DNA of 64,000 nucleotides from a bacterium (GTDB taxonomy: Bacteria > Patescibacteriota > Minisyncoccia > Phycocordibacterales > UBA2100): assembly GCA_030647655.1 (NCBI GenBank), contig JAUSJH010000006.1:3737-67736 (forward strand). Direction: 5' to 3'. Every line of letters starts with the position of its first letter. Position 1 is the stretch's first letter. The notes under the pieces were generated by a model that saw only the letters and a program-made list of their open reading frames with translations, was not told where the DNA came from and ran no database searches. This document shows, piece after piece, positions 1-50,638 of this stretch. The position numbers and the translations under genes were made by a program.

Positions 1-1235
1 TCACCCCATGAGAGTCGGTAGCCCGTGCAGGCCGAGGGGACATCGAACGATACAGAGAATGAAAGCGAGTCCGCGCCTGAAGGTGAGACGATTGGCGGGC
101 TGTATTGATACGCGGCTGGCGGAGGAGGAGGCGGAGGTGGCGCCGCCGCCCCGACGATGATGGTCTCCGTCCCTACGGTGGGCCTTCCCACGCCTGCGCC
201 ACCCTGATAGAGCGTCGCCCTGTATCCGCCCGATTGTGTGTATGAGTGTGTGACACTGTAATTGAGCCAGCCGCCGACGGTTGCCGGAAGATTGACAGAT
301 GCCATCGTGCCATCTCCGAAATCCAAGGTCGACGCACATCCACCTTGGCAGAATCCGGCGTCGTTGCTATTCACGGTACCCGAGAATGTGACGCTAAGCG
401 GGGCTGGGCCCGATGTGGGGCTTACGCTAAAAGATTCGCGTGGGAGGTTGGGAGTGAATACCGGAGGTGGGGGCGCTCCCGCACCAGAAACGGTCACGGT
501 CGCGGATGTCTGATGTCTTCCGGCCGAGAGATTTATCTGATACGTGCCGCCGTATTGATAAGTGTGCGGGTACGTTTGGTTGAGTGTCCCGCAATTGCCT
601 GCAGAAACTGGTATCTGCTGCACGGTGGTGTTGTCACCAAAATCGAGCGAGTAGATTGCGCCAGCGCAAGAGCTGACCGTATTCACCGTCGCCGTGACGC
701 TGACGGCAAGCGGTGCATTGCCCGAGATAGGCGTAACGGTGATGAAGCCGCCTACGGCTGGTACGCTAGGACCCGGTACGCCGCCATAATTCCCGGTCGT
801 GCACAAAAGCGCGATTGCGGCGGCAGTGCGCGGACCCACAACTCCATAGCCGGTGGTGGCCGGTGTCCCGGACGAAACGATGTTGTATTTGGCTTGCCAG
901 CGTTGAACTGCCTTTTCTGTGAGCCCTCCGTAGTAGCCGCTCGCAATACCTTCGGGATATATAGATGGGTCGCGTGCAAGAAATTGCTGAAGACGCAAGA
1001 CGTCATCGCCCGAGACACCGTTCTTAAGACTCCTCCCGATAAGCGGGCACGAGCTCGAGTCGTTACCTGTAGGTACGACATTTGTATTGGGATTCCCCCC
1101 AAGTTGAGCCTGAAGCGCCGCGACTTGCGCGAGCAATGCTTGCGCCTGCGCCTGTAATTCGGCCGCCGTCGCGGCATTTGCAGAAAGTGGAAGAATGAGA
1201 AGCGCCAATATCCAAAAACCCAGAGCTCTTTGCAT
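1..1235 (-). CDS. secreted coiled-coil / peptidoglycan-binding-domain protein (partial; C-terminus lies beyond window start)
   Basis: Manual translation of the minus frame from ATG at 1235: MQRALGFWILALLILPLSANA (signal peptide), LQAQAQALLAQVAALQAQL (coiled coil), then a PG_binding_1-like stretch (LxxFL...YYG...WQ...GP.T) and a polyPro stretch near 120-145. The frame is open to position 1. Paralog of 22861..24633 and 24743..25915. Not in the supplied ORF track. Confidence 0.6.
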   Translation of the reverse strand, partial: MQRALGFWILALLILPLSANAATAAELQAQAQALLAQVAALQAQLGGNPNTNVVPTGNDSSSCPLIGRSLKNGVSGDDVLRLQQFLARDPSIYPEGIASGYYGGLTEKAVQRWQAKYNIVSSGTPATTGYGVVGPRTAAAIALLCTTGNYGGVPGPSVPAVGGFITVTPISGNAPLAVSVTATVNTVSSCAGAIYSLDFGDNTTVQQIPVSAGNCGTLNQTYPHTYQYGGTYQINLSAGRHQTSATVTVSGAGAPPPPVFTPNLPRESFSVSPTSGPAPLSVTFSGTVNSNDAGFCQGGCASTLDFGDGTMASVNLPATVGGWLNYSVTHSYTQSGGYRATLYQGGAGVGRPTVGTETIIVGAAAPPPPPPPPAAYQYSPPIVSPSGADSLSFSVSFDVPSACTGYRLSWG

Positions 1236-1333
1236 GCCTACATTGTTGCATGGCTCACAAACCACGCAACTCGCGAATTCACAGCGGGATTCATCTACCT
1301 TGTCCGGAATACTTGAAATAGTTTGAATCAGAA

Positions 1334-2188
1334 TTATGTACCCGTATGGACTTCTATTTTTCTTTCACCTCCCGGCGGACCCATGAGAACGCCAACGCGA
1401 TATTTCTTCTCCTTGGGGCGCACACGGCCGTCGGCAATCGACTCACCCGGATAGTACGGCAACTGTCCAATCGCACGGAAAACATTCTCAAAGATGTCGA
1501 ACCCGAATGTGCGCTCGTTCCAGATGTACAGGTCTAGGTAGTGAATGAGAAGAAGAACCAAAACAACAGCGCTCGAAATCGCGAGGGTGACGATATCGAA
1601 GAACAGGGTGCCGGTACGAAGCCCATACAACGAAAGTATGAAGAGCGCCGCGAGTATAAGTAGTATCGCCCACTGGAATCGAGAAAGTGTCCGAGCCCCA
1701 AGAACGGTAAGCTGCTGGCGGGCGATACTGATGTCGTGCATTATCCCCCGGATGATCTGATAGACCGGTAAAAGCTCGGGCTTTACCGGAAACGACCGCA
1801 CCGTCTCAACTATCGCCTGATACTCGGACGCTGTTGCTTCTGCATATTCGATAATCTCGAAGTCGAAATTCCGCCGCAGGTAGACATCAACGAGTCCGGA
1901 AAGTTTCTCGGCCAATGGTCTATCATAGGTAAGGACATTATCGTAGAGATTAATCCATCCGGCTGTTTCTGCTGAGAGAATATTTTTTACGCTGTTGTAG
2001 TCAGTCGTCGTTACGACAATGTAAAAGCCCGCGATAATGCCAAATAGAAATGCAATGACGGTCAGTACCGTGTTGCCAAGATCGGAAGAGATGAACGGAT
2101 GCGGGACAACAAAAAGCAGGAGGACGAACGCCGCAAAAGAAACCCAAAATATCCGCTGTGTCCTCATGCATCTTTCACTATACATCAA
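1334..2188 (-). CDS. hypothetical polytopic membrane protein
   Basis: 284-aa ORF with two pairs of hydrophobic helices (FAAFVLLLFVV, IAFLFGIIAGFYIVV, WAILLILAALFILSLYG, VTLAISSAVVLVLLLI); no family recognised. Confidence 0.45.
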   Translation of the reverse strand: MMYSERCMRTQRIFWVSFAAFVLLLFVVPHPFISSDLGNTVLTVIAFLFGIIAGFYIVVTTTDYNSVKNILSAETAGWINLYDNVLTYDRPLAEKLSGLVDVYLRRNFDFEIIEYAEATASEYQAIVETVRSFPVKPELLPVYQIIRGIMHDISIARQQLTVLGARTLSRFQWAILLILAALFILSLYGLRTGTLFFDIVTLAISSAVVLVLLLIHYLDLYIWNERTFGFDIFENVFRAIGQLPYYPGESIADGRVRPKEKKYRVGVLMGPPGGERKIEVHTGT

Positions 2189-2190
2189 AG

Positions 2191-2264
2191 TCCGCCCGCT
2201 TGGACTCGAACCAAGAACCCCAGAGGTATAAGCTCTGTGCTCTAACCAATTGAGCTACGGGCGG
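2191..2264 (-). tRNA. tRNA-Ile, anticodon UAU
   Basis: Reverse complement folds as a cloverleaf: acceptor CCGCCCG/CGGGCGG, D arm GCUC-AAUUGGUUA-GAGC, anticodon stem CAGAG/CUCUG with loop CUUAUAC (U33, A37), T arm CUUGG-UUCGAGU-CCAAG, discriminator A; no encoded CCA. Confidence 0.7.
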
Positions 2265-10455: not shown

Positions 10456-10837
10456 GGGGGTGACTGGCTTCGACAAGGAAATCGACATATATGTGCGCGG
10501 GGCAAAGCTGTAGTTGCTTTTCAACCGCTACACAATTCAAGTGCGAACAAAGTAGCACGTGCGGTTCTCTCACCTATTCAGGTGTCTGACCTGCAGTTCG
10601 CTTACGCGTTAGCCTAAGCGACCGTCCGCCAGTTCAACGCTTGATCAGAGCTGAACGGGCGTCACTTCATTCAAGCACTGATGTCGTAGGTCCGGACGAT
10701 ATCTAAGATGAGGACTCGGCGGTATACGATTCTGTTCATCTCATACGTATGCCGCTTAAATCAAAAGATGTTCTACGCTTCGTAGACACGCATATACTGT
10801 TTTTCCTTGGACGGGGGTTCGATGCCCCCCACCTCCA
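10456..10837 (+). ncRNA. ssrA: tmRNA (transfer-messenger RNA)
   Basis: 5' GGGGGUGACUGG...CGACAAGG resembles tmRNA 5' ends. 3' end GGACGGGGGUUCGAUGCCCCCCACCUCCA gives a T arm and acceptor strand pairing with the 5' end (including G3:U70). An internal frame ends ...DLQFAYALA-stop, a plausible tag peptide. Lies 40 nt after the GIY-YIG gene downstream of smpB. Confidence 0.75.
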
Positions 10838-10886
10838 CTCGATTCGGCCATATAAAATGGCCTCACTCGTGGCAAGCCACAAAATC

Positions 10887-22860: not shown

Positions 22861-24633
22861 TTAGTAGCAATACGAGGAGCAGTATCCTATCCCGAACATA
22901 GCTGTTGCTTGTCCTGCAGTTGCTTCGTTACCACTGAATAGTATTTGATAATTCTGAAAGTTTCCTCCTGCAAGTTCACTTGGTATCGTCCATGTGAAGC
23001 TGCCGCCTTGTAATCCTGAAGAATATGCGGTGCCAAGCGAACGGTCGATTGAGCCATATGGGATGCCGCCCAATAAGCGTAAAGAGTAACTCTTTACCCC
23101 CACATCAGAGCCTGTCCACGTAATACGGTATGTTTGACCGGCATACAGTTGCGCGCCAGGAGTCGGGAATGTGATTGTAACTGGCTGCACCAGATTGCTC
23201 AAAACTTTTACACGGACCGAATTGCTCGTCCCGTACTGATTCACGACGTACAGGTCATAGCTCTGCCCGACAATAAGCGACGAGGGGACATCCGCATTCA
23301 CCCGGGTCTCGCTCGTCCACGTCACGGTCGCCGGAATACCACTGAAGAACACTTTGGTTGAATCGACCGTAGCAAGATTATTTCCGTAAATCGACACTTC
23401 GCCACCCGCATCTACCTCCAAATTGCCGGCAGCTTTTGCGCTCGTTGAGATGATGACAGGATCGGTACTTGGAGCATTGACGACGGTGAAATAGCCATTG
23501 CTTTCATCGCGAACATTGCCCGTAGTGAGCGCGACCTTGTACTGCCCGCCCGGTAAGAGCTCACCTGTATTTGGACAGACGTAGCCCGGCCCCATATAGA
23601 ACCCGTACGTCCCGGCAGACACCGCAACAGTGCCGATGTTGCACGAGATTGTCGGGGACACAAGAAATACCCCGGCCGATCCTACGACTCCATGCGCTAT
23701 CCAATTCACTCGCAGATCTACATCCTTACCGCTACCGAAGACGAGGGATTCTCCGCCGTTCGGATACGTAATTGTGATAGACGAAGATGTGTCGACGACG
23801 TAATCAGATGTTTCGCCGACATCATAGCAGTAGCGTCCTTGCTCCCCCCTACAGCCGGCCGAATCGCTCCCCGTCCACAAATTCCCTTGTGAGGGCGCGA
23901 CGTCATTATCATAGTCGAGCGCGGAACTTCTGTTTTCGAGACTTGCACCGAGTTCATATCCTCTTCCCCCTCCGAGTTGATCATATGAATATGAGTTGTT
24001 ATCAGAGACATCTATCGGAACGGAGGCAATGTAGTCAGGCGCGAGAAAAGAGGTTGTCGGAGGATACATCCCCTTATCATCGTAGTAGAGCTCCAGCGCG
24101 AGTTGAAGCTGCTTGATATCGGCGATTCGACGCGCATCACGACCTTTTGCCCGCGCCTCGGCGGTATTCTCTGGAATTTCCATGCCGTAACAGAGCCGTG
24201 CCATCGCGGTGCGGGTGCGCGAGCCGACAAAGCCGTAGCCCGTTGAGTCCGGGTCGCCGGAAGATACGACGCCGTGCGCGGCTTGCCAGCGCTGCACCGC
24301 GCGCATCGTTGCAGGGCCGAAGTAGCCAGTGATGCGCGCTTCGGGATAGATTGAGGGGCCATACGAAGCGAGAAATTGTTGGAGTTTGGTAACCTCCCCG
24401 TTGGTGTCTGCATCGGTGTCGTCAACTGAAAGACTATTTGAAAGAGAGACGCACGCTGAAGTACTGGCGGGGGTGGTATTTGCGGGGACACCGAGTTGGG
24501 ACCTTAGAGCGGTGATTTGTGTTAGCAAACTCTGGACTTGAGCCTGCAAGTCGCTCAACGTATCAGAGGAAGCGAAGAGTGGTGACGCGAGAAAGAGAAG
24601 TCCGAGGCCGCCGAAGGCGATTTTTTTAAGCAT
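22861..24633 (-). CDS. secreted coiled-coil / peptidoglycan-binding-domain protein with pseudopilin (GspG-like) domain and beta-rich C-terminal region
   Basis: Signal peptide MLKKIAFGGLGLLFLASPLFA, heptad region LSDLQAQVQSLLTQITALRSQL, PG_binding_1-like VTKLQQFLASYGPSIYP...YFGPATMRAVQRWQ, then RDARRIADIKQLQLALELYYDDKGMYP (type IV pilin/pseudopilin globular-domain signature) without the N-terminal pilin TM helix. Confidence 0.6.
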   Translation of the reverse strand: MLKKIAFGGLGLLFLASPLFASSDTLSDLQAQVQSLLTQITALRSQLGVPANTTPASTSACVSLSNSLSVDDTDADTNGEVTKLQQFLASYGPSIYPEARITGYFGPATMRAVQRWQAAHGVVSSGDPDSTGYGFVGSRTRTAMARLCYGMEIPENTAEARAKGRDARRIADIKQLQLALELYYDDKGMYPPTTSFLAPDYIASVPIDVSDNNSYSYDQLGGGRGYELGASLENRSSALDYDNDVAPSQGNLWTGSDSAGCRGEQGRYCYDVGETSDYVVDTSSSITITYPNGGESLVFGSGKDVDLRVNWIAHGVVGSAGVFLVSPTISCNIGTVAVSAGTYGFYMGPGYVCPNTGELLPGGQYKVALTTGNVRDESNGYFTVVNAPSTDPVIISTSAKAAGNLEVDAGGEVSIYGNNLATVDSTKVFFSGIPATVTWTSETRVNADVPSSLIVGQSYDLYVVNQYGTSNSVRVKVLSNLVQPVTITFPTPGAQLYAGQTYRITWTGSDVGVKSYSLRLLGGIPYGSIDRSLGTAYSSGLQGGSFTWTIPSELAGGNFQNYQILFSGNEATAGQATAMFGIGYCSSYCY

Positions 24634-24742
24634 GATTTTGACCTCTATGGTAATACCGTAAGGGTAACACGTACTGCACTATTGATGCAGCACCACAGGC
24701 TACCGGTAGTCGTCGGGAGGTTAAACCTCCAGAGTTCACTTT

Positions 24743-25915
24743 TTAGTTGGAAATCGTAAACACCCCACTTTCGGCGAGAGTGTCCATTCCTCTGCTGATG
24801 CGAATCTTGTATCTGCCCGGTACAACAGTATTTTCCTTGTTGATAGTACCAGCACCGAGATAGTTGAGCGTTATGCTGGCAGTCCATCCACTGAATTCTG
24901 CTTGCGAACCGTTGTTTAAGCTGCCAACTATTCCTGCTTGAGAACCATCTTCCCGTATAAGATTCAGAACTACCTTATCGCCCTCAGGCCATGTAGCGAT
25001 GACAGGTTCACTCAGCTTAATTATATGCGCCTCGCCGGTCTTCCAACGGTCGCCGGGTATCGGCGAAAGAACGGTAATGCCGTTTTGAGAACTCTCCGTA
25101 ACCGTAAAGGAAACGGAATTACTCCACTTCGACCATGGTTTTACGGAAATCTCGTAGACGCCTGGAGACACAGAAAAATATGATGCGCATGGAAGTCCTG
25201 AATAAGAAGTGTCCTGCTTACAGAACGATGACTGTATTGTTGTCACGATAGTAGTATCGTCGCTACCAGTCCTGTCCCCGTACATAACACCGCTAGAGTA
25301 ATCCGGAGGGTTAAATTCCGTTGCAATACGAGCATTCAGATCACCTTCAAAACCGCGCAGATTTTTGCCTTTGATAGTAATCTTTGTGCCGATAGGACCG
25401 CTCGAAGGAGTTACGCTGTAAATGACGGGGTCTAAAGTGCTATTGCTGGTCGAACCTGAGCCGCATGATTCTGTGATCTTTGCCCGTGTCATCGGACCGA
25501 CGCCGCTTTTGGGTGTTACGAAACCCATGCCGTGGGCTTTTTGCCAACGCATGACCGCCTGCGCGGTGAGATTTCCATAATAGCCAGTGATAGGACCCGT
25601 GTAAACCCCCTGATCTGTGAGAAACTGTTGCAGACGTGACACTTCATCATCGTGCAGTGAGTCGGTAGAACCTATGATTAAATTTCGCGTAATCATCGGG
25701 CACGTCCCCGCACCCGTCGGATTAGACGGGGCAGTTTTCATGGCGGCCATCTGCGCTTTCAACTGGGTGATTTGTGCGAGCAACCCTTGAATTTGCGATT
25801 GTAGTTCCTCAATCGGATTCGTCGTGGCAAGTGCGGGTGTGGCAAGAAAAAGAATTCCCAAAACCGGAAGCGCGAGTTTTTTAAGCATGATGTTTGCCTT
25901 AAGGGTAATGCACAA
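24743..25915 (-). CDS. secreted coiled-coil / peptidoglycan-binding-domain protein
   Basis: Signal MLKKLALPVLGILFLATPALA, IEELQSQIQGLLAQITQLKAQMAAM, VSRLQQFLTDQGVYTGPITGYYGNLTAQAVMRWQ PGBD-like; paralog of 22861..24633. Confidence 0.6.
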   Translation of the reverse strand: MCITLKANIMLKKLALPVLGILFLATPALATTNPIEELQSQIQGLLAQITQLKAQMAAMKTAPSNPTGAGTCPMITRNLIIGSTDSLHDDEVSRLQQFLTDQGVYTGPITGYYGNLTAQAVMRWQKAHGMGFVTPKSGVGPMTRAKITESCGSGSTSNSTLDPVIYSVTPSSGPIGTKITIKGKNLRGFEGDLNARIATEFNPPDYSSGVMYGDRTGSDDTTIVTTIQSSFCKQDTSYSGLPCASYFSVSPGVYEISVKPWSKWSNSVSFTVTESSQNGITVLSPIPGDRWKTGEAHIIKLSEPVIATWPEGDKVVLNLIREDGSQAGIVGSLNNGSQAEFSGWTASITLNYLGAGTINKENTVVPGRYKIRISRGMDTLAESGVFTISN

Positions 25916-25940: not shown

Positions 25941-28766
25941 CTATTGATACAACGATGCGGGCAATTCGGGTTCGAGTGGGTTTGGCGCGGGCTTTTTGCC
26001 GTAGGCGGCGTCGAATTTGCGGCGAATGTCTGCTTCTACCTCTTCTCTATCTTTCCCATACATTTTGTATGAAAGTTCTTTCATCGTGTCTATCTTGCTG
26101 TAATCCATGTGAGGAAGATCGGCAGTTTGGATAGTGAATGGTCGCGCAGGGACGCCATTGACGAGAAGCGCCAAAACCGCGGTTCTGTTCGGCAGATTCT
26201 CAAGATCCTGCTGCGTGAATATCGGCGTAAATTGTTTCTCCAAAAACTCGGCATCTTGCGTGCCTACACGGAACGACGCTTTGGTGCCCACATTTCCGAT
26301 GACCGCGTCGCGGATGTCTTCTTCGAGCTGCGCAATAAATTGATGCGCTATCGTGAGTGAGAGCTTGTATTTGCGGGCCTCGGAGAGAATGGTCGCGATT
26401 GATGGTGTAGCGAAGTTCTGGAACTCGTCGATATAGAGATAAAAGACGGGCAAAAGGTCGCCCCTCGTGTCAACACGCGAGAATGCCGCCTGCAGAAATT
26501 TTGAGACGAGAATAAGACCGAGGAGCGAGGTGTTTCGATCGCCCAAGCGACCTTTCGAGAGATTGGCGAGAAAAATCTTTTTCTTATCCATTATCTCGCG
26601 GAAATTGAACGCGGATTTTTCCTGGCTAACGATAGGCCGCATGATGTCGTTGGTGAGAAAGACGTCGAACTTGCTGGTGATGTAGGGCGCCACGTTCTCA
26701 AGGCTGGGGTCACCTTGCGCCTGTTCGGCAATTTTGCGCCAGAATTGCACGATTATTGGGTTATTGCAGTGGCTAAGCTTTAAATTGCGGAACGCGGTAT
26801 CGGCGAATACACGCGGTATCTCGACGAAAGTACTTCCTGTGTCCGGATCCTCGACGACGAGCTGCACCGCGTTGCGGTAGTATTGCTCGAACATCGGGCC
26901 GAAGGCCTCCGGCACGTCGGCGTAGAGTTTTCTGAAAATGCCATACACTTCGTCCACCACGAATGTCTTCATTTCCGGCTTCGAGCGGTCGTACTCGAGC
27001 ATGTTGAGGCCCATCGGCCGTGCTGTGTATGCAGGGTCAAAATAGATGACGTCTTTCATGCGCTCGGGCGGGATACACGCGAGCACATCCTCGATGTCGT
27101 TGCCGTGCGGATCGATGAAGGCAACTCCTTCGCCGTTCTTTATATCCTGAATAATCATATTCTTGATGAGCCCTGTCTTTCCGGTACCTGTCTGTCCGAT
27201 GACATACGCATGGCGGAGGCGATCCGACGCCCCGAATCGCACCGGCGTCTCGTCGGCGCCGTACTTGTTGATACCGATGGTGATGCCGTCGGCCGGAGTC
27301 TCGACTGGCGCAGGCGCTTGTTTGGCGAAGCTGCGCTTCAACTCGCGTGAGGTCGTGAGGCGCTCGGCGGTGAAATGGAATATCGAGGTCACTTCCGCTA
27401 GCGAGAGCGGCATCGATATCCCGTGGTCGAACTCTCGGTATGTAAAGTCGCGCAGAAAGTTGGCAAGTCCCCAACTTCCGACTTCTTTGAAGATTAAATG
27501 ATTGCCTTTTGCATCATCGTACTGGTTGAAAGGCGCCTCCAGATTACTCAAAAGTTCTTCCGCACGGGCTTTTGTCGGCGCGGACGTGACGAGGCGGATG
27601 GAGACGGGTGCTATGCGCGTTTTTACCTTCTTAGTTACCTCTTCGGTCACCACCTGATCGCTCGAGCGGCGGAATTGTTTTTCCACTTCCATCTCATACT
27701 CCTTCGCCATGAATATTTGTTTTGCCATTGCATAGACCGCTTCTCCAATTTCTGTTTCAGGCACTTTGATGGCCTTGCGGAAATTTTTCCCCTTCTCAAG
27801 TTCCCGAATAATCTTCTTATAGTGATGATTGTACCGATCGCCTTCGGTCGAGACGGTAATCTGTAGCGCCGCCCCCTCCCCGTGTTTTGCTATTTTCGCG
27901 AACGCCGCAAGCAAGACGTTCATCGGATCGTGCTCAAAAAGCTCGGGGGTTTTGAGGGGAAGCGAGGGATGGTCGGCAAGAGTCGCATAGGCGGCAGCAT
28001 GCTCGCCTTCGTAGTTGAAAATGTTGTAATCACCGCGAGATTCGGACATACGCGCGTTGGGAAATACGGATGATATAAGGCGCTCCGCAAGGATCTTTTT
28101 TGCCCGCGGCACGGCGAGGTACAAAAATGCTTCTTCGCTCCCCTCTTGCACTGCGATCTCGAGTGAGAATCCTTCGTGCTTGTCGATGAGGGAGGTGAGG
28201 CCTGCGTAAAGCTGTTCGGAAGATGAGAGGAGCTGTTCGAGCTTGTGCTGTTGATTCTCCTGTTTGTCACCCTCACCAAATGCCTGCGGCTGTATCTCGA
28301 AGAGAACCATGTTGAGTGCGCGGCGAACTTTCTCGGGCGCCTTCATACCGTGGTCCGGCAAGCCTTCTGCGATGTAGCGCACCAAGGCGCGATGCACGTC
28401 GTCCTCGAGGTGCGGATTCTTCATGCGTGCCGCGACCGAAAGTGCGTTCCTTATACCGCTCTGCTGGACCAGTCGCAGTATCTCGTCCACCTGTTTATCG
28501 TGCGTCTCCGGCTCAAGTTTCAAGACCGTGCGCACAATGTCGTGCTCGGCCATAACAACCGTTTCGTGGAGGACGGTCGCCGCAGGAGTGTCCGCATAGG
28601 CGGCAACTTCACGGCGGGCGATACGGTCTTTTTCAAAACGGTTGTCCGGCGCTTCCATCTCGGCCTCTTTCTCGCGCACCCGCTCGCGCAAATAGGCAAG
28701 CTCCTCTTCAGGTGATTTGAATTTCTCTAGAGCCGCATTACGCGGCTTCTCCATCATGGGAGGCAT
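25941..28766 (-). CDS. large P-loop NTPase, VirD4/TraG/TraD (type IV coupling protein)-like ATPase domain with about 500-aa N-terminal extension
   Basis: Walker A GQTGTGKT followed by AFIDPHG / YFDPAY (DP motifs of T4SS-DNA_transf family), Walker B-like YIDEFQNF, RKYKLSLTIAHQFIAQL (TraG-like Q motif); 941 aa, no N-terminal TM helices. Confidence 0.55.
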   Translation of the reverse strand: MPPMMEKPRNAALEKFKSPEEELAYLRERVREKEAEMEAPDNRFEKDRIARREVAAYADTPAATVLHETVVMAEHDIVRTVLKLEPETHDKQVDEILRLVQQSGIRNALSVAARMKNPHLEDDVHRALVRYIAEGLPDHGMKAPEKVRRALNMVLFEIQPQAFGEGDKQENQQHKLEQLLSSSEQLYAGLTSLIDKHEGFSLEIAVQEGSEEAFLYLAVPRAKKILAERLISSVFPNARMSESRGDYNIFNYEGEHAAAYATLADHPSLPLKTPELFEHDPMNVLLAAFAKIAKHGEGAALQITVSTEGDRYNHHYKKIIRELEKGKNFRKAIKVPETEIGEAVYAMAKQIFMAKEYEMEVEKQFRRSSDQVVTEEVTKKVKTRIAPVSIRLVTSAPTKARAEELLSNLEAPFNQYDDAKGNHLIFKEVGSWGLANFLRDFTYREFDHGISMPLSLAEVTSIFHFTAERLTTSRELKRSFAKQAPAPVETPADGITIGINKYGADETPVRFGASDRLRHAYVIGQTGTGKTGLIKNMIIQDIKNGEGVAFIDPHGNDIEDVLACIPPERMKDVIYFDPAYTARPMGLNMLEYDRSKPEMKTFVVDEVYGIFRKLYADVPEAFGPMFEQYYRNAVQLVVEDPDTGSTFVEIPRVFADTAFRNLKLSHCNNPIIVQFWRKIAEQAQGDPSLENVAPYITSKFDVFLTNDIMRPIVSQEKSAFNFREIMDKKKIFLANLSKGRLGDRNTSLLGLILVSKFLQAAFSRVDTRGDLLPVFYLYIDEFQNFATPSIATILSEARKYKLSLTIAHQFIAQLEEDIRDAVIGNVGTKASFRVGTQDAEFLEKQFTPIFTQQDLENLPNRTAVLALLVNGVPARPFTIQTADLPHMDYSKIDTMKELSYKMYGKDREEVEADIRRKFDAAYGKKPAPNPLEPELPASLYQ

Positions 28767-44697: not shown

Positions 44698-46149
44698 CTA
44701 AAGCGTGGGCTCGAGTGGCGACGCATGATTTCGTCGGCGGACCCAGAGCCATGAGACTACAAGAAGCGCCAGAAGCGCAATCACGCCAGTAAGCTTCAGG
44801 AGACCTGACGGTGAGAGGATGTCGCTTAAGGAGAACGTTTGCGATTTCAACTCTTTCGGAAGGCAGGTAGACGGAGCAATCTGATTGCAATCGTACGTCA
44901 GCAGAGACTCATCGACGAGCGTGCCGCCCTGATAGAGCTTCGCGGTGAGCTCGAACGTGTCGTAATTGCCTTTCGGGGTGAATTTCTCCGCGACGCCCAT
45001 CATGTCACCAGTCACGTCACCCGTATACGTATATTCGTGAATAAGTTTGCCCGAAGTGTCCGAGAGATGGAGGACGAGCTTGCCATTGGGTACAGACTCG
45101 CTCTCGCCGCTGTTGTGCAGGCACGAGAAGAGCGTCGTTTCCTCACCTTTGCGCAACGGAAATGCGGTCACTCCCGGAAAATTGATGCGCGTGCGGTCGA
45201 TTCCTGTGCGCGCGAAGCGCACGTTGATGATGGACTGCGTGTTGCCCCAGCCCACCCAGCCGATGAGTAAGTACACCGGATAGCGCGCATCGGTCGCGGT
45301 ATACGAGACTGTCGCGCTCCCGCCAGCGGGGACGGATACTTGCGAATCGCTTTGCGCTACCAGGTTGCCCGGCTGACCCGCATCCCATGTGTAAAGCTTC
45401 CACGACACGGGCACAAGTACTTTCTGCGCCGTGGTATTGCGTATGACCGCGCTTATCGGCACGGCCGCTACTTTGTCTGTGCGCGGCGGGAACGCGGCGA
45501 AGTAGTATGTGTTGCCCGCTACCGTGACCGCGTTCTTATCGAACGATACGAGTTTCTGCTGTTCGCCAGACACATGGAAGCTCGCTGTGTTACCGACAAC
45601 ATCGTCAGTGAACGAGAGGCCGAGCAGATTGTATTTCTTGGATGTGGTGAAGAAGGTGGCGATTTTGTAGTCGCCCGTAGATGCATAACTCGGAATATCC
45701 CACGTGAACGCGATGGGCAATGAGCCCTGCGCCGGTAGATTGATACCACTACGCACGAAGAATTGGTCAACGACATCGGGACCGTTCGGGTCTTTGGCGC
45801 CGGAATTATCCTTCAGTCGGAATACCTTGATATAGAGTGCGCCGTCCACGATTGGGTAGGGATTGTCGTTCTTGATGGCGCCGGTAAAGGTGATGGGCGT
45901 GCCCGAGACCGCGGTCGTGACACTTGAACTTACGTTCACTTGTACCGAACCGAAACGGTAGTACGCGAAGCAATCGGTAGTGCCAGCCGGAAACACGACC
46001 GTGGTGGTAGAAGGGACCGCATCAGCGTCGTCGGGCGCAAGCGTATCTTGTGCGAGTGCGAGCGGCGCGCCTGAGCTGGCAAGGAGAAGCACGGCACTGA
46101 TAAATGCGGTTCCGCGCCGAAGACTAACGATGAGAGAGTTCATAGACAT
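44698..46149 (-). CDS. secreted surface protein with C-terminal TM anchor, hypothetical
   Basis: Signal peptide, beta-rich 440 aa, C-terminal GVIALLALLVVSWLWVRRRN helix plus basic tail. Confidence 0.5.
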   Translation of the reverse strand: MSMNSLIVSLRRGTAFISAVLLLASSGAPLALAQDTLAPDDADAVPSTTTVVFPAGTTDCFAYYRFGSVQVNVSSSVTTAVSGTPITFTGAIKNDNPYPIVDGALYIKVFRLKDNSGAKDPNGPDVVDQFFVRSGINLPAQGSLPIAFTWDIPSYASTGDYKIATFFTTSKKYNLLGLSFTDDVVGNTASFHVSGEQQKLVSFDKNAVTVAGNTYYFAAFPPRTDKVAAVPISAVIRNTTAQKVLVPVSWKLYTWDAGQPGNLVAQSDSQVSVPAGGSATVSYTATDARYPVYLLIGWVGWGNTQSIINVRFARTGIDRTRINFPGVTAFPLRKGEETTLFSCLHNSGESESVPNGKLVLHLSDTSGKLIHEYTYTGDVTGDMMGVAEKFTPKGNYDTFELTAKLYQGGTLVDESLLTYDCNQIAPSTCLPKELKSQTFSLSDILSPSGLLKLTGVIALLALLVVSWLWVRRRNHASPLEPTL

Positions 46150-46150
46150 A

Positions 46151-47809
46151 TTACAGCTCCCGAACCAACGGTACGACGTTCACGGTCGTGGATTGTGTGA
46201 GTATCGAACCATCGAGCCCCGTGCATGAGAGCGTGTAGACGGTCTGGCTCTGGATTTGAGATGTGGCGACGCCTGAGGAGAGTGCCCCGCTCCAAGCGCC
46301 CGTGCCATTGGCGAGTGGGTCGCTCGGGCTCGTCACCTTGCAGGAATTGCCCACGACATTAGCGGCGCTCCACGAGACAGTCGTCGTGTCGCCCGGACGC
46401 ACAAGCGAAGGAACGGCACGGATGAGGAGCGCGGGCGTGCCTCCTCCGCCTCCTCCTATGCAGTAAGCGCCGCTCTGCGTTTGCGGTGGGGTGCACTGGC
46501 ATGATGGGTATGCTGTCTTGTTGAGGCCGTTGGAGCACAAGGTGCCAATGTCCACACAGGAAGAGCCGCTTTGTTTTTGCCCAGTGGGACAAGTGCACGA
46601 TGGATACGTCGTCTTGTTGAGGCCGTTGGAGCACAGATTCTGTGTGCCCGAGCAGGTGAATCTGAAGGTGGTCCATCCCGAGGAAAATCCGGGCTTGTCG
46701 AACGCAATGACCTTGATGGTCTTCCCGCCAGCTGTTGTGTATGTGCGAGAGGCCGATTGCGCGACTCCCGAGGCGACGTATCCCGAAGATGGAACGAACT
46801 GGTCTACGGTGCCATCTGCGTCCCAGTCCACGCCGTATCTCACTTGGTCACCGTCGGAATCCGTGGAGTAGAACGTGATGGTATGCGAGGTGCCGATGGT
46901 GCACTGGCCGGAGCCGGAGACAGTGGGAGCGGAGGGTGTGGAACCTGTGGTATCTGTAACAGTAATTGGATACGGGATTGTTTGCGTCGGAACAGTAAGC
47001 AAGAAATTGCCCTGTGATCTCCCTGCACTTGATGCCGCGGGTTTGTATACCCACATGGGTTCGTTGTTCCCTGTGCAACGGCGCGCTGCCAATGGTCCAC
47101 TCGTGGGGTCCAGTCTACCGTAGAATCTTCCCCTTGTGGCGGCAAAGGAAAACGAGAGCGGGACTGTGCCGAGATCGGAGGCAGTGCAGGTGCGCGAACC
47201 GTTCTCGGCCGCTTCTCCGCATGAAAGGTTGCCGACTCCTTGTACGGTCTGGTTTGGAGGTGCCGCGACAAGCGCCGCATAGATTTTTCCGTCTCGGACA
47301 CCGTTACGATCATGTCCTACAAAATCCTTTTCAAGACAGGCGAGCCGCGGCGCCGATGCTTGCGCGCGCCATTCTCCGTAGGGGCTGTCGTAGCCGAAGC
47401 CCGTGGAAAACCAATAGATGTCTTCGCTCGCGTGTCGGTCGAATGAGAGAACGAGCCGAGTCCCGCGCAAGACCGAGCCGCCGGGAGGAATGATTTCGCC
47501 TGTCGCCGCTTTTTTCACTACCGCGCGATATTGCACGGAAATCGTCGGATTACCGAATCCGAACGAATCCGGTCCGGAGCATTGGCGATCGGCGCCCAGC
47601 GGAACGAGGCAGGAGCGAATAAGTGTTCTAGAAACCGTCGTGCTCCACACGACGCTTTCCGCGTGAACAAGAAGGGGCAACACTATTGCAATTAAAAGCG
47701 CCGCCAGTGAAAGCGAATAGGCACACCAGAGAGTTCGATGCATATCTGCATTATAGAGCGTGGAAAGCGTCGGCGGCGACACAATGTGGCGACGTGTGTA
47801 CAAATTCAC
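46151..47809 (-). CDS. secreted Cys-rich repeat protein, hypothetical
   Basis: Signal/TM at N-terminus; two tandem about 33-aa Cys repeats (CSNGLNKT.YPSC.C...QSG..C), then a poly-Gly. Confidence 0.5.
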   Translation of the reverse strand: MNLYTRRHIVSPPTLSTLYNADMHRTLWCAYSLSLAALLIAIVLPLLVHAESVVWSTTVSRTLIRSCLVPLGADRQCSGPDSFGFGNPTISVQYRAVVKKAATGEIIPPGGSVLRGTRLVLSFDRHASEDIYWFSTGFGYDSPYGEWRAQASAPRLACLEKDFVGHDRNGVRDGKIYAALVAAPPNQTVQGVGNLSCGEAAENGSRTCTASDLGTVPLSFSFAATRGRFYGRLDPTSGPLAARRCTGNNEPMWVYKPAASSAGRSQGNFLLTVPTQTIPYPITVTDTTGSTPSAPTVSGSGQCTIGTSHTITFYSTDSDGDQVRYGVDWDADGTVDQFVPSSGYVASGVAQSASRTYTTAGGKTIKVIAFDKPGFSSGWTTFRFTCSGTQNLCSNGLNKTTYPSCTCPTGQKQSGSSCVDIGTLCSNGLNKTAYPSCQCTPPQTQSGAYCIGGGGGGTPALLIRAVPSLVRPGDTTTVSWSAANVVGNSCKVTSPSDPLANGTGAWSGALSSGVATSQIQSQTVYTLSCTGLDGSILTQSTTVNVVPLVREL

Positions 47810-48337: not shown

Positions 48338-49732
48338 CTACTGTTCGTTGAAAATGGGAACGATGTTGACCGTGGTCGAGTCTGTCACGCTCGGGGGCGA
48401 GGAGCCTTCAAGCCCTTGGCAGAGAATGGTGAAGACGGTCTGGGCATTAATCAGCTTCGAGGTTTGGATAATCTCGGTAGAACAGGCACCCCCCAGACAA
48501 CTCCATGAATCATTATTGGTACTAGTCACCGTGCACGATGCGACATAGTCAGCTTTCCATTTGACTTGCACGGCATTGTTCCTCTGCACTAAAAGAGGTC
48601 GAACACTCCAAGTGACTATCGAAGGAGGTGGTGCCCCGATACACGCGCCGCCGGAACAGCCGTAATCGCAACTCTGGTAGAGTGACTCGGTGCAACTTGC
48701 CCCGCTTCGCCGATACAGATCATTTCCACGACATACGAACGGCGGCGTGCATTGACTAATCGACTGCGTATATTGGCACTTTCGTTCAGACGTGCATCGC
48801 GTTACAGACAGCCAGCGAAGGTCCTGCGCCGGGTTTGTATCTCCTGTACATACTGTCGCATTTGAAGGTAGTGACCCTGTGCAGGCTCCTGCTGACTGCG
48901 TATATTGGCACTTTCGTTCAGACGTGCATCGCGTTACAGACAGCCAGCGAAGGTCCTGCGCCGGGTTTGTATCTCCTGTACATGCTGTCGCATTTGAAGG
49001 TAGTAATCCTGTGCAGACTCCCGCTGACTCCGTATATTGGCACTTTCGTTCAGACGTGCATCGCGTTACAGACAGCCAGCGAAGGTCCTGCGCCGGGTTT
49101 GTATCTCCTGTACATGCTGTCGCATTTGAAGGTAGCGATCCTGTGCAGCTCCCCCCTCCCACTCCACCAACAGTAACACTTGCCGTACACGTCGCTGGCA
49201 AAGGCTGGGCGTGGATTGTGCCTATGCGATAGTAATCAGTTCCTGTGAGAGTATAAGTCACCGTGCCAGCTGTGTTTGGAGCAGTAACATTGCGAGAGCC
49301 ACTAAGGGTGGCGCTCCCGCTATCCGTGACATTGAGCCCGCCAGGATTGATTGAACCGTCAAATCTATGGCGCGAATTTGGGTAACCGATAGAAAAACCA
49401 CCAGTCGGCGGCGGTCGCGTCACGCGCCATGTAAGCCTGAATTGACGGCCCGCATCGGGGGGCGTATCCGAAGGGGTGAGCGTACAAATGGCACCAGATG
49501 AACTACAATTAGGCACACCTGTATCGCCCGCAAAATGCGGAGGCGCTGACGGGCATGAGGCTGGGACAATCGCAAGTCCGTGCGGGGAGGCATCGGTGAA
49601 TTTCACCTCGGCGGATGCAAAAGGTTTTTGTGTGTTTGAAGCGATACCGGAGAGGAGTAGCGCGATCGCAACGAGCGCGGCAATCAATAGCAACTCTTTC
49701 CTCAAAACAACCCAATGTAGATGTTTTTTCAT
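48338..49732 (-). CDS. secreted protein with three near-identical 41-aa Cys-containing tandem repeats, hypothetical
   Basis: Signal peptide; repeat CTGSLPSNATACTGDTNPAQDLRWLSVTRCTSERKCQYT.S three times. Confidence 0.5.
   Translation of the reverse strand: MKKHLHWVVLRKELLLIAALVAIALLLSGIASNTQKPFASAEVKFTDASPHGLAIVPASCPSAPPHFAGDTGVPNCSSSGAICTLTPSDTPPDAGRQFRLTWRVTRPPPTGGFSIGYPNSRHRFDGSINPGGLNVTDSGSATLSGSRNVTAPNTAGTVTYTLTGTDYYRIGTIHAQPLPATCTASVTVGGVGGGSCTGSLPSNATACTGDTNPAQDLRWLSVTRCTSERKCQYTESAGVCTGLLPSNATACTGDTNPAQDLRWLSVTRCTSERKCQYTQSAGACTGSLPSNATVCTGDTNPAQDLRWLSVTRCTSERKCQYTQSISQCTPPFVCRGNDLYRRSGASCTESLYQSCDYGCSGGACIGAPPPSIVTWSVRPLLVQRNNAVQVKWKADYVASCTVTSTNNDSWSCLGGACSTEIIQTSKLINAQTVFTILCQGLEGSSPPSVTDSTTVNIVPIFNEQ
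48776..49145. repeat. 123-bp tandem direct repeat, 3 copies, over 95% identical
   Basis: Period measured from the recurring tatattggcactttcgttcagacgtgcatcgcg at 48779, 48902 and 49025. Confidence 0.8.
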
Positions 49733-49774: not shown

Positions 49775-50638
49775 TCATTGTACCGTGCTCGAGGCAAGCG
49801 ACTGCTCTATGGTGTGCATATTGCCAGACACGGCCTTTTTGAACGCCGCGAGTCCATCACTCGCGATCTTTGGGTCGTTGCCGGGGTATGCAACGAGCCA
49901 CTGCTTTTCTGTGGTCTTTCGTACCTCCGCGTCGGCACGTTGTACGTATACAAGCGCTCCTGCATAATCCCCCATCTCATAGAGCGCAGTCGCTTGTGAA
50001 TTAAGAAGCCACGGGTTATCGGGAAAATTCTCGAGGCCGCGCGCAGTTGCCGCCGCGGCTTCTTCTGGTCGATTTGCTTTGAGCAATACCCACGCATAAT
50101 CATTGAGGGCCGCCCAGTTCGTCGGGTCGTACTCAAGATAGCGCTCATAGTCTTTCGCAGAAGCGTCATATTTGCCCATATAACCCTCAATGAGTCCGCG
50201 GACATAGTATGAATTCGGAGTTTCGTCTCCGTGCATGCTTATCTGGAAATCTATCTTGGCGAGTGCCGCGTTGAAACGGCCTTTCAAAAAATCAATACGC
50301 GCGAGTTCGTGGTAGAGGTAGAGGATTGTCGGATCAAGTGCCGCCGCTTTCTTGAAGAAGTATTCGGCGCGAGCGATATCGTAAGCCGATGAATTGCTCG
50401 CATTGAAATGCCGCTCGCCATAGGCAAAAGCGCGGGCGGCTGTGGGATTGATAACGTAGAGTGCGTCCTCGCCCGCGTTCCGCAAACTTTGCGGCGCTGT
50501 ATTCCATGTAAGAGCAAGACCGAGCACGAAGAGAACAGCTAATCCCGCGGCATGTGCGTGAACGCGCGTTATCCCCCATACTTTCACCCCGTTAGAAAAT
50601 GCCCTCTTTCTAACGGGCGAGCTTGACTTTTCACACAT
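49775..50638 (-). CDS. tetratricopeptide (TPR) repeat protein, membrane-anchored
   Basis: N-terminal TM; multiple TPR-like 34-aa units (YYVRGLIEGYMGKYDASAKDYERYLEYDP...). Confidence 0.6.
   Translation of the reverse strand: MCEKSSSPVRKRAFSNGVKVWGITRVHAHAAGLAVLFVLGLALTWNTAPQSLRNAGEDALYVINPTAARAFAYGERHFNASNSSAYDIARAEYFFKKAAALDPTILYLYHELARIDFLKGRFNAALAKIDFQISMHGDETPNSYYVRGLIEGYMGKYDASAKDYERYLEYDPTNWAALNDYAWVLLKANRPEEAAAATARGLENFPDNPWLLNSQATALYEMGDYAGALVYVQRADAEVRKTTEKQWLVAYPGNDPKIASDGLAAFKKAVSGNMHTIEQSLASSTVQ

What the first reader, a model, noticed from the sequence alone, without database searches (positions are those of the whole stretch)
23700..24200. Pseudopilin (GspG/type IV pilin-like) globular domain embedded in a PGBD protein without the pilin N-terminal helix
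Within 22861..24633 the stretch AEARAKGRDARRIADIKQLQLALELYYDDKGMYPPTTSFL...NSYSYDQ reproduces the conserved beginning of type IV pilin / T2SS pseudopilin globular domains (RDA.R..D...I..ALE.Y..D.G.YP). It is not preceded by the class III signal peptide or hydrophobic helix; instead it follows a Sec signal, coiled coil and PG-binding domain. A pilin-fold domain delivered by the Sec route and tethered to peptidoglycan is an unusual architecture.
Basis: partly seen in the sequence, partly recalled or inferred. Interest (0 to 1): 0.55.

Follow-up and report, generated by a model that had tools for sequence, protein, structure and literature searches.

The report
Pilin head domain without its helix
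A cell-wall-binding surface protein of an ultrasmall (Kaiserbacteria-like) bacterium carries the globular head of the lineage's own type IV pilin, cut exactly where the membrane helix ends, so a pilus building block has been reused as an ordinary secreted protein domain.

Summary
ORF 22861..24633 (-) encodes a 590-aa protein. Its order is Sec-type signal, heptad coil, PG_binding_1 domain, pilin head (residues 158-274) and three Ig-like domains.

- **Homology:** the head matches about 150-aa Patescibacteria type IV pilins at E 4e-30 and 56% identity, right to their C-terminus. It lacks pilin residues 1-24, which hold the class III signal, E5 and the hydrophobic helix.
- **Fold:** AlphaFold gives a confident helix-plus-sheet head (pLDDT 86.6). 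Its best PDB matches are GspG/EpsG pseudopilins and type IV pilins.
- **Conservation:** every column conserved in pilins from R165 onward is equally conserved in embedded heads.
- **Reality of the fusion:** a syntenic Kaiserbacteria ortholog has the same architecture. At least 29 other non-pilin proteins carry such heads in several architectures.
- **Genomic context:** PilB/PilC lie near the homologous pilin genes in 66 loci, but near none of the 7 embedded-head genes.

Best reading: a Sec-exported, wall-tethered modular surface protein whose pilin-derived head is an autonomous, non-polymerising module, probably adhesive. The function is inferred, not shown. This is a new variant of a known kind, of moderate interest.

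The parts
22861..24633 (-). Gene for the 590-aa PG-binding / pilin-head / Ig-domain surface protein. The identical protein is in NCBI as 'MAG: peptidoglycan-binding protein [bacterium]'.
   Evidence: Full-length orthologs exist at 56% identity: P0122 and L005 in Ca. Kaiserbacteria.
24641..24646 (-). Shine-Dalgarno-like AGAGGT, 8 nt upstream of the ATG.
   Evidence: Sequence read.
24568..24633 (-). Sec-type (type I) signal peptide, residues 1-22: MLKK, hydrophobic core, then PLFA|SS. There is no lipobox Cys and no class III motif.
   Evidence: Read from the sequence. The N-terminal pattern is shared by 7 homologs. pLDDT is below 50 for residues 1-23. The cleavage site is inferred.
24496..24564 (-). 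Heptad coiled-coil helix, residues 24-46 (LSDLQAQVQSLLTQITALRSQL).
   Evidence: AlphaFold helix H24-46. Hydrophobic residues show 3-4-3-4 spacing in the sequence. The motif QAQIQxLLAQIxxLxAQ is conserved in the family. The oligomeric state is not known.
24190..24453 (-). PG_binding_1 domain bracketed by invariant Cys61 and Cys148 (residues 61-148).
   Evidence: Pfam PF01471, 40.8 bits against a cut-off of 23, residues 78-130. pLDDT is above 90 over residues 61-127. C61 and C148 are invariant in 8 homologs.
23812..24162 (-). Pilin head domain, residues 158-274. It equals mature-pilin residues ~25 to the C-terminus: alpha1-C helix, alpha-beta loop, antiparallel sheet and the C-terminal Cys261/Cys269 pair.
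24073..24165 (-). Alpha1-C helix of the head (residues 157-187) with the near-invariant motif RDARRIADIKQLQLALELYYD.
   Evidence: AlphaFold H157-187 in the full-length model and H8-38 in the domain model. Conservation equals that in pilins.
23482..23775 (-). First beta-sandwich (Ig-like) domain, residues ~287-384. It has no Pfam name.
   Evidence: AlphaFold strands E287-384. No Pfam hit.
23194..23457 (-). IPT/TIG Ig-like domain, residues ~393-480.
   Evidence: Pfam PF01833, E 3.3e-5, 24.2 bits against a cut-off of 20.9. Strands seen.
22894..23181 (-). Kre9_KNH-like Ig-like domain, residues ~485-580, followed by the tail GIGYCSSYCY.
   Evidence: Pfam PF10342, E 7.6e-10, 39.8 bits against a cut-off of 24.6. 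It is the best-conserved part between orthologs, at 75%.
24743..25915 (-). Upstream paralog with the same signal-coil-PGBD N-module plus TIG, and no pilin head.
25941..28766 (-). VirD4/TraG-like coupling-protein ATPase (941 aa) on the same strand directly upstream. The adjacency is conserved in two syntenic genomes but not elsewhere, so it is context and not a demonstrated partner.

Best explanation
The gene encodes a Sec-exported, non-covalently wall-tethered modular surface protein of a Kaiserbacteria-like Patescibacteria bacterium.

**Family.** It belongs to a large family in which a conserved N-terminal module (signal peptide, heptad coil, PG_binding_1 domain) carries interchangeable extracellular cargo domains.

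**Cargo.** Here the cargo starts with a domain derived from the head of this lineage's own GspG-like type IV pilins. It was excised at the alpha1-N/alpha1-C junction, near mature-pilin residue 25. Three Ig-like domains follow.

**Consequence.** The head lacks the class III signal, Phe1/Glu5 and the hydrophobic alpha1-N helix that forms the filament core. It therefore cannot be processed by prepilin peptidase or polymerised by the pilus machine. It should fold as a soluble, autonomous head, which is what laboratories obtain when they truncate pilins at the same point. The protein then displays it at the cell wall, most likely as a binding or adhesion module. This would reuse the pilin's exposed surface, possibly on a stalk of Ig-like domains.

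**Shown:** homology, fold, domain boundary, conservation, recurrence, and lack of linkage to pilus genes.

**Inferred:** export route, wall binding, monomeric non-polymerising state, and adhesive role.
For: **Homology and boundary.**
- The head matches true pilins at E 4e-30, running to the pilin C-terminus.
- In 36 head instances in long proteins, the match starts at profile positions 1-8, the same junction each time.
- Column analysis shows positions conserved only in pilins stop at residue 163. From R165 on, 28 columns conserved at 80% or more in 116 pilins are equally conserved in 30 embedded heads. No column is conserved only in pilins.

**Fold.** pLDDT 86.6. The best PDB matches are all pseudopilins or pilins.

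**The fusion is real and under selection.**
- A syntenic ortholog in Ca. Kaiserbacteria RIFCSPHIGHO2_02_FULL_54_11b has the same architecture.
- Between orthologs the head is 70% identical (alpha1-C 80%), against 28% for the PGBD and 56% overall.

**Modular family.**
- N-module homologs carry PKD, FKBP, cupredoxin, beta-lactamase/S11 peptidase, lectin, fn3 and other domains.
- The window alone holds four N-module paralogs.

**Recurrence.** Twenty-nine non-pilin proteins carry heads, and 30 of 36 instances have no hydrophobic helix upstream. Seven of 89 heads in species-representative genomes are of this kind.

**Decoupling from the pilus machine.**
- PilB/T or PilC homologs lie within 10 kb in 66 loci, all of them classic-pilin loci.
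- They lie near none of the 7 embedded-head genes and are absent from the 64-kb window.
- The sister genome does have a T4P locus elsewhere, with a T2SSE ATPase, T2SSF PilC and N_methyl pilins.

**Linkers.** Linkers before the head are Pro/Thr/Ser/Asn-rich in homologs.
Against: - No ligand or adhesive function has been shown for any member.
- The head sits next to the wall anchor, with the Ig-like domains distal. This is not the usual anchor-stalk-tip order of fibrillar adhesins, so the head could be structural rather than the binding tip.
- Strict conservation of the charged alpha1-C motif in embedded heads could also mean a retained pilin-pilin or pilus contact rather than mere fold stability.
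- PG binding by PG_binding_1 is a family annotation and was not tested.
- The signal peptide was judged by eye.
- The rest of this genome, including its pilus genes, could not be examined.
Confidence: 0.6

Rival explanations
1. Pilus partner. The wall-anchored head keeps a pilin-pilin interface and works with the cell's own type IV pilus. It could be a collar or dock where the fibre crosses the peptidoglycan of a secretin-less monoderm cell. It could also be a short-range adhesin with the same specificity as the pilus, holding the host after retraction.
For: - The alpha1-C motif and all family-conserved head columns are retained at pilin-like levels.
- The sister genome has a T4P locus with a homologous pilin.
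- The head lies directly after the PG-binding domain, close to the wall.
- A heptad coil could make the protein oligomeric.
- T4P are central to episymbiosis in cultivated Patescibacteria (abstract of PMC11623550, listed).
Against: - There is no genomic linkage to pilus genes in 7 of 7 embedded-head loci, whereas the homologous pilins are linked.
- Heads also occur at C-termini, in tandem and in unrelated architectures. That fits a general-purpose module better than one dedicated machine part.
- Filament contacts in T4P are dominated by alpha1-N (established knowledge), and alpha1-N is missing here.
Confidence: 0.15
2. Decoy. The displayed head mimics the pilus surface and soaks up pilus-targeting phages, or other factors that recognise the pilin.
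For: - The head is closest to one true-pilin subfamily, at 56-59% identity.
- Other embedded heads are nearest to different true-pilin subfamilies.
- The surface proteins evolve much faster (44-56% identity) than the flanking housekeeping genes (70-90%).
Against: - The embedded head is only 45% identical to the sister genome's pilin in the T4P locus, which is poor mimicry.
- Within the protein the head is one of the slowest-evolving parts.
- No structural relatives were found among viral proteins, though that test bears only weakly on this idea.
Confidence: 0.07
3. Cryptic or degenerate pilin. The protein is still a pilus substrate, cleaved at G150|MEIPE, or it is a decaying pilin remnant fused by mis-assembly or mis-calling.
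For: MAFFT placed window G150-MEIPE under the pilin G|FTLIE motif, matching G, I and E.
Against: - The motif is absent from all orthologs, so the match is chance.
- No hydrophobic stretch follows it.
- The architecture is conserved in independent assemblies from several samples and in syntenic genomes.
- The reading frame is intact with a good ribosome-binding site.
- The head is under purifying selection.
Confidence: 0.02

Closest known systems
Type IV pilins / T2SS major pseudopilin GspG (Pfam T2SSG PF08334 with N_methyl PF07963), specifically the ~150-aa pilins of Kaiserbacteria/Paceibacteria
   Same: The head domain is homologous over its whole length. It shares the alpha1-C motif RDARR..D.KQLQLALELYYD, the YP and DP motifs, the sheet and the C-terminal Cys pair. 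It has the same predicted fold.
   Different: It has no class III signal peptide, no Gly-1/Phe1/Glu5 and no hydrophobic alpha1-N. It sits at residue 158 of a 590-aa Sec-signal protein and is not next to pilB/pilC. Its own T2SSG score is below Pfam's cut-off.
Laboratory N-terminally truncated pilins and pseudopilins (e.g. PulG 1t92, EpsG 3fu1/4lw9 crystal constructs)
   Same: The boundary is the same: alpha1-N removed, alpha1-C plus sheet kept. These are the best structural matches. From general knowledge, such constructs are soluble and do not polymerise.
   Different: Those are artificial. This truncation is natural, conserved and fused to other domains.
Modular type IV pilins (Streptococcus sanguinis PilB/PilC; PMC8179133, PMC9934059, listed)
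   Same: A pilin module is combined with adhesive or other modules in one polypeptide.
   Different: Modular pilins keep the class III signal and alpha1-N at the N-terminus and are polymerised into the pilus. Here the pilin module is internal, lacks the helix and is delivered by Sec.
Geobacter split pilin GSU1496/GSU1497 (PilA-N/PilA-C), from gene fission (PMC5174107)
   Same: The globular part of a pilin is separated from the N-terminal helix and has its own signal peptide.
   Different: GSU1497 is a small stand-alone beta-sheet protein without alpha1-C. It is encoded next to its helix partner and is functionally tied to it. The protein here keeps alpha1-C, is fused to a PG-binding domain and Ig-like domains, and is unlinked to pilin genes.
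Wall-anchored modular exoproteins and fibrillar adhesins of monoderm bacteria (anchor, Ig-like stalk, functional domain; PMC9210967, listed)
   Same: It has a Sec signal, a non-covalent wall-binding module, Ig-like (TIG, Kre9_KNH-like) domains and rapid divergence between close genomes.
   Different: The anchor is N-terminal PG_binding_1 after a coiled coil. The candidate functional domain is a pilin head placed next to the anchor rather than at the tip.

Membership tests
Type IV pilin / pseudopilin (type IV filament subunit) | Class III signal peptide with Gly-1 and a prepilin-peptidase site (G|F/M-T-L-I/L-E) | tested here: not met
   The regular-expression scan found no such motif in any frame of the window. 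The alignment shows the segment is absent. The chance 'GMEIPE' is not conserved in orthologs.
Type IV pilin / pseudopilin (type IV filament subunit) | Hydrophobic alpha1-N helix (~residues 1-24) with Glu5 | tested here: not met
   Maximum KD17 hydrophobicity is 0.17 in the 40 residues upstream of the head. In pilins the same measure is about 3.05.
Type IV pilin / pseudopilin (type IV filament subunit) | Head fold: amphipathic alpha1-C packed on an antiparallel beta-sheet | tested here: met
   AlphaFold pLDDT 86.6, with H8-38 plus strands. The Foldseek top 14 matches are all pseudopilins or pilins, probability up to 1.0.
Type IV pilin / pseudopilin (type IV filament subunit) | Sequence homology of the head to bona fide pilins | tested here: met
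   E 4e-30, 56% identity to PF07963-bearing pilins. The helix-less profile hits only GspG/EpsG in the PDB.
Type IV pilin / pseudopilin (type IV filament subunit) | C-terminal cysteine pair (disulfide-bonded loop) | tested here: inconclusive
   Cys261 and Cys269 align with the pilin Cys pair. Bond formation cannot be tested here.
Type IV pilin / pseudopilin (type IV filament subunit) | Encoded with, or dependent on, the PilB/PilC/PilD machinery | tested here: not met
   No PilB/T or PilC homolog lies in the 64-kb window or within 10 kb of any of the 7 embedded-head genes. They are present in 66 classic-pilin loci. The rest of the genome was not available.
Pfam T2SSG (PF08334) | Score at or above the gathering threshold (21 bits) | tested here: not met
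   The window head scores 14.8 bits, E 0.031. Twenty-five of 30 related heads match at E<=1, best 3e-6.
PG_binding_1 (PF01471) wall-binding proteins | Domain score above the gathering threshold | tested here: met
   40.8 bits against 23, residues 78-130. The fold is confident.
PG_binding_1 (PF01471) wall-binding proteins | Actual binding to peptidoglycan | not testable with these tools
   This is a family annotation only.
Sec-exported protein (type I signal peptide) | N-terminal n/h/c regions with a small-x-small cleavage site and no lipobox | tested here: inconclusive
   The pattern is visible in the sequence and shared by homologs. No signal-peptide predictor was available.
Fibrillar adhesin class | Anchor, repeated stalk domains and a distal adhesive domain | tested here: inconclusive
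   The anchor and three Ig-like domains are present. The order differs from the usual one, and no adhesive activity is known.

The most novel reading that the evidence does not exclude
The helix-less pilin head is a wall-anchored partner of the cell's own type IV pilus in a secretin-less, monoderm episymbiont. It could be an oligomeric collar or dock at the point where the fibre crosses the peptidoglycan. It could also be a 'hand-over' adhesin that presents the pilin's binding surface at the wall, so that a host captured by the retracting pilus is then held at close range. Either reading would make it a new class of type IV filament accessory, built from a pilin that has lost the ability to polymerise.
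Probability: 0.15. Interest if true: 0.8.

Novelty: new variant of a known kind. Interest (0 to 1): 0.5.

Why it matters
The long hydrophobic N-terminal helix is treated as the trademark of the type IV pilin superfamily. Pilin heads are normally discussed only as parts of filaments.

This case shows a conserved, recurrent natural use of the head alone. It is cut at the same junction structural biologists use, delivered by Sec and tied to the wall. So the head is an autonomous evolutionary module that can leave the filament system.

Current annotation misses it. The protein is named only 'peptidoglycan-binding protein', and its T2SSG score is below threshold.

Patescibacteria depend on surface contact with hosts and have few characterised adhesins. 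These proteins are therefore concrete candidates for host recognition. They are also a natural soluble form of an uncultured organism's pilin head, suited to structural and binding studies.

Tried and rejected
1. **'GMEIPE' as a relic of the prepilin site GFTLIE.** MAFFT suggested this. It is rejected because none of the orthologs has it.

2. **Functional link to the adjacent VirD4/TraG-like ATPase.** The adjacency is conserved in L005 and L002/L006, but there the whole block from map and purD to NDK and beta-CASP is syntenic. Other head-bearing loci (L008, L011, L078) have no VirD4-like gene. Orphan T4CP genes are common in Patescibacteria (PMC12102498). The ATPase is treated as context only.

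3. **Single-sequence search of PDB sequences.** It found nothing relevant. Only the profile recovered GspG.

4. **Genomic context of the exact protein.** Only a 2.7-kb contig was returned.

6. **Foldseek against viral structures.** No meaningful hit.

7. **Promoter and terminator scan.** Counts did not exceed shuffled expectation, so no operon statement is made.

8. **Literature searches.** Searches for a described helix-less pilin head in Sec-exported or CPR proteins found none. The library is incomplete, so this is absence of evidence only.

9. **Caveat.** That search did not return the query's own 590-aa protein. It under-samples long proteins, so recurrence was established by other routes.
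Full report
**What is there.** The window encodes, on the minus strand at 22861..24633, a 590-aa protein. A GAGG ribosome-binding site sits 8 nt before the ATG.

Pfam places three domains:
- PG_binding_1 at residues 78-130, 40.8 bits against a cut-off of 23.
- IPT/TIG at residues 408-473.
- A Kre9_KNH-like Ig-like domain at residues 490-571.

Pfam places nothing on residues 140-290. The identical protein exists in NCBI, named only 'MAG: peptidoglycan-binding protein [bacterium]'.

**Is the pilin resemblance real?** Yes.
- Residues 150-284 found 522 proteins. The best had E 4e-30, 56% identity and 84% coverage. Nearly all are 137-186-aa Patescibacteria proteins with the prepilin N-methylation motif PF07963, several named Kaiserbacteria or Yonathbacteria.
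- In the alignment, homology begins at pilin 'NSARxKGRDARR' and continues to the very C-terminus 'CYDVxP'. This includes the YP and DP motifs and the C-terminal Cys pair, Cys261 and Cys269 here.
- The pilin segment GFTLIELLVVIAIIGILSSVVLAS has no counterpart.
- Counting from Phe1, window residue 158 corresponds to mature-pilin residue ~25. So exactly alpha1-N is missing, and alpha1-C plus the sheet are kept.
- Hydrophobicity upstream of the head is 0.17 (KD, 17-residue window), against about 3.05 in true pilins.
- No class III motif exists anywhere in the window.
- MAFFT's placement of G150-MEIPE under G|FTLIE is chance, because no ortholog has it.

**Fold.**
- AlphaFold2 on residues 150-290, with a 121-sequence alignment, gave pLDDT 86.6 and pTM 0.78. 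The model has a 31-residue helix followed by an antiparallel sheet.
- The top 14 Foldseek matches against the PDB are all T2SS major pseudopilins or type IV pilins. They include EpsG 4lw9/3fu1/3gn9, PulG 1t92, GspG 3g20, C. difficile PilA1 and PilW, and Thermus PilA4 and TTHA1221. The best has E 4.6e-3, probability 1.0 and TM 0.42-0.55.
- A profile built only from helix-less heads hits only GspG/EpsG chains among 177,635 PDB sequences, best E 8e-4.
- Twenty-five of 30 heads match Pfam T2SSG. The window's own head scores 14.8 bits, below the cut-off of 21, which explains why annotation missed it.
- The full-length model (pLDDT 73.9) shows, in order: a disordered signal, helix 24-46, a confident PGBD, the head (helix 157-187 and strands to residue 274), and three beta-sandwich domains. 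Helix 24-46 has perfect 3-4 heptad spacing of hydrophobic residues.

**Is the fusion real and selected?**
- A full-length ortholog at 56% identity lies in Ca. Kaiserbacteria RIFCSPHIGHO2_02_FULL_54_11b (L005). A shorter-matching one lies in a Paceibacterota MAG (L006, which is P0123).
- L005 is syntenic with the window. The flanking genes are 70-90% identical: map 86%, purD 77%, VirD4-like ATPase 90%, NDK 88%, beta-CASP 70% and LOG-like 86%. The two PGBD surface genes are only 44% and 56% identical. So the window is a Kaiserbacteria relative, and its surface proteins evolve fast.
- Within the protein, identity is 70% for the head (alpha1-C 80%) and 75% for the C-terminal domain. It is 28% for the PGBD and 36% for the coil.
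- Across 116 pilins and 30 embedded heads, columns conserved only in pilins end at residue 163. From R165 onward, 28 columns are conserved in both sets and none is conserved only in pilins. The conservation boundary is therefore the alpha1-N/alpha1-C junction.

**Recurrence.**
- Seventeen of the 81 long homologs from the full-length search carry a head.
- With the exhaustive representative search (9,015 hits at E<=1e-3, 61 at E<=1e-30), 31 proteins had 36 head domains. Twenty-nine of the 31 proteins are not pilins, and 30 of the 36 instances lack an upstream hydrophobic helix.
- Architectures fall into four groups:
  - signal-coil-PGBD-head-Ig, which is the window's clade: P0122, P0123, P0127, P0130, P0145, P0146, P0207, P0210;
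  - head at the C-terminus: P0144, P0152, P0153, P0200, P0290;
  - tandem heads: P0217, P0218, P0285, P0296;
  - cytoplasmic domain, TM helix, then head: P0188, P0195.
- In 80 loci from species-representative genomes, all Parcubacteria-type Patescibacteria, 82 of 89 heads are classic pilins and 7 are embedded.
- The window's head clusters with P0122, P0130, P0123 and P0127 at 58-69% identity. Other embedded heads are nearest to different true-pilin subfamilies, for example P0162 and P0124. This suggests more than one capture or later recombination. That inference rests on nearest neighbours, not a tree.

**Context.**
- The window is ordinary chromosome. It holds the SecY/adk/map/L6 ribosomal cluster, EF-Tu, FtsH and a tmRNA.
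- It contains no other head and no PilB/PilC.
- It has four paralogs of the signal-coil-PGBD module. Homologs of that module elsewhere carry PKD, FKBP, cupredoxin, beta-lactamase/peptidase S11, lectin, fn3 and other domains. The module is therefore a generic wall anchor for exoproteins.
- PilB/T or PilC homologs lie within 10 kb of the head in 66 loci, all classic-pilin loci. They lie near none of the 7 embedded-head loci.
- The sister Kaiserbacteria genome has a T4P locus on another contig, with a T2SSE ATPase, T2SSF and three N_methyl proteins. Its pilin head is 45% identical to the embedded one.

**Interpretation.**
- The protein is best read as a Sec-exported, wall-tethered modular surface protein. 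Its pilin-derived head is an autonomous, non-polymerising domain.
- Without the class III signal, Glu5 and alpha1-N it cannot be a substrate of prepilin peptidase or of filament assembly. This rests on established knowledge of type IV filaments.
- The same truncation yields soluble heads in the crystal constructs that are its best structural matches.
- The most likely role is binding or adhesion at the cell surface. This is inferred from the architecture, the fast evolution of the protein and the episymbiotic lifestyle of the group (abstract of PMC11623550). It is not shown.
- Rivals are a pilus-partner role (collar, dock or hand-over adhesin), a decoy role, and a cryptic or degenerate pilin. 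The last is effectively excluded.

**Comparison with known things.**
- It is not a member of the type IV pilin family as operationally defined. Three defining features were tested and not met: the signal, alpha1-N and machinery linkage. Its head is nonetheless a homolog of GspG-like pilin heads.
- Modular pilins of S. sanguinis combine a pilin module with adhesive modules but keep the N-terminal pilin signal and are polymerised (PMC8179133).
- Geobacter GSU1497 is a pilin globular part separated by gene fission and given its own signal peptide. It stays next to, and depends on, its helix partner (PMC5174107).
- I found no description of a helix-less pilin head as a module of Sec-exported wall proteins. 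The library searched is incomplete.

**Verdict.** The thing is a new variant of a known kind: a known domain in a new, recurrent, machinery-independent context. Interest is moderate at 0.5. It would rise to about 0.8 if the head proves to work with the pilus.

Noticed in passing
window 2190..2264 (-): tRNA-Ile with anticodon TAT (UAU). Bacteria usually read AUA with a lysidine-modified CAU tRNA, so this is an uncommon decoding solution.
   Followed up: no
window 10456..10838 (+): tmRNA gene with tag peptide ANKVARAVLSPIQVSDLQFAYALA.
   Followed up: no
window 3..1364 (-), 24743..25915 (-), 62326..63864 (-): Three further paralogs of the signal-coil-PG_binding_1 N-module. One carries TIG, one carries PKD domains, and one runs off the window start. 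With the studied gene that makes four in 64 kb, pointing to a multigene family of wall-anchored exoproteins.
   Followed up: partly
window 25941..28766 (-): A 941-aa VirD4/TraG-like coupling-protein ATPase with no other T4SS gene seen nearby. It is 90% identical to the copy in the sister Kaiserbacteria genome, while the surface genes immediately downstream are only 44-56% identical. Orphan T4CPs are reported as common in Patescibacteria (PMC12102498).
   Followed up: partly
window 56218..57780 (-) and neighbours 55481..56239 (-), 49775..50638 (-): A YcaO cyclodehydratase-family gene beside an unannotated 252-aa ORF, with a TPR protein nearby. This may be a RiPP or thioamide-type locus in a reduced genome.
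   Followed up: no
window 44698..46149, 46151..47809, 48338..49732 (all -): Three consecutive large ORFs (483, 552 and 464 aa) with no Pfam match at E<=1e-4.
   Followed up: no
proteins P0188, P0195; locus L069 9509..10807: A different head-bearing architecture in Sungbacteria-type genomes. A soluble N-terminal domain is followed by a transmembrane helix and then directly by the pilin head, without a prepilin cleavage motif. This would be a membrane-anchored, apparently uncleavable pilin-like protein.
   Followed up: partly
proteins P0217, P0218, P0285, P0296: Two or three tandem copies of the helix-less pilin head within one protein.
   Followed up: no
locus L003 8001..9455 (protein P0144): A PGBD protein with a C-terminal pilin head is inserted between rpsL-rpsG and fusA, within the conserved str operon, next to a ParE toxin gene.
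   Followed up: no
window protein residues 61 and 148 (window 24451..24453 and 24190..24192): Two cysteines bracketing the PG_binding_1 domain are invariant in eight diverged homologs. This suggests a disulfide staple across the domain, even though the PGBD sequence itself is only 28% conserved between orthologs.
   Followed up: no
tool behaviour: The word-indexed homolog search with the 135-aa head did not return the query's own 590-aa protein or its 69%-identical ortholog. Head-only searches of that database therefore under-report long, multidomain carriers.
   Followed up: yes
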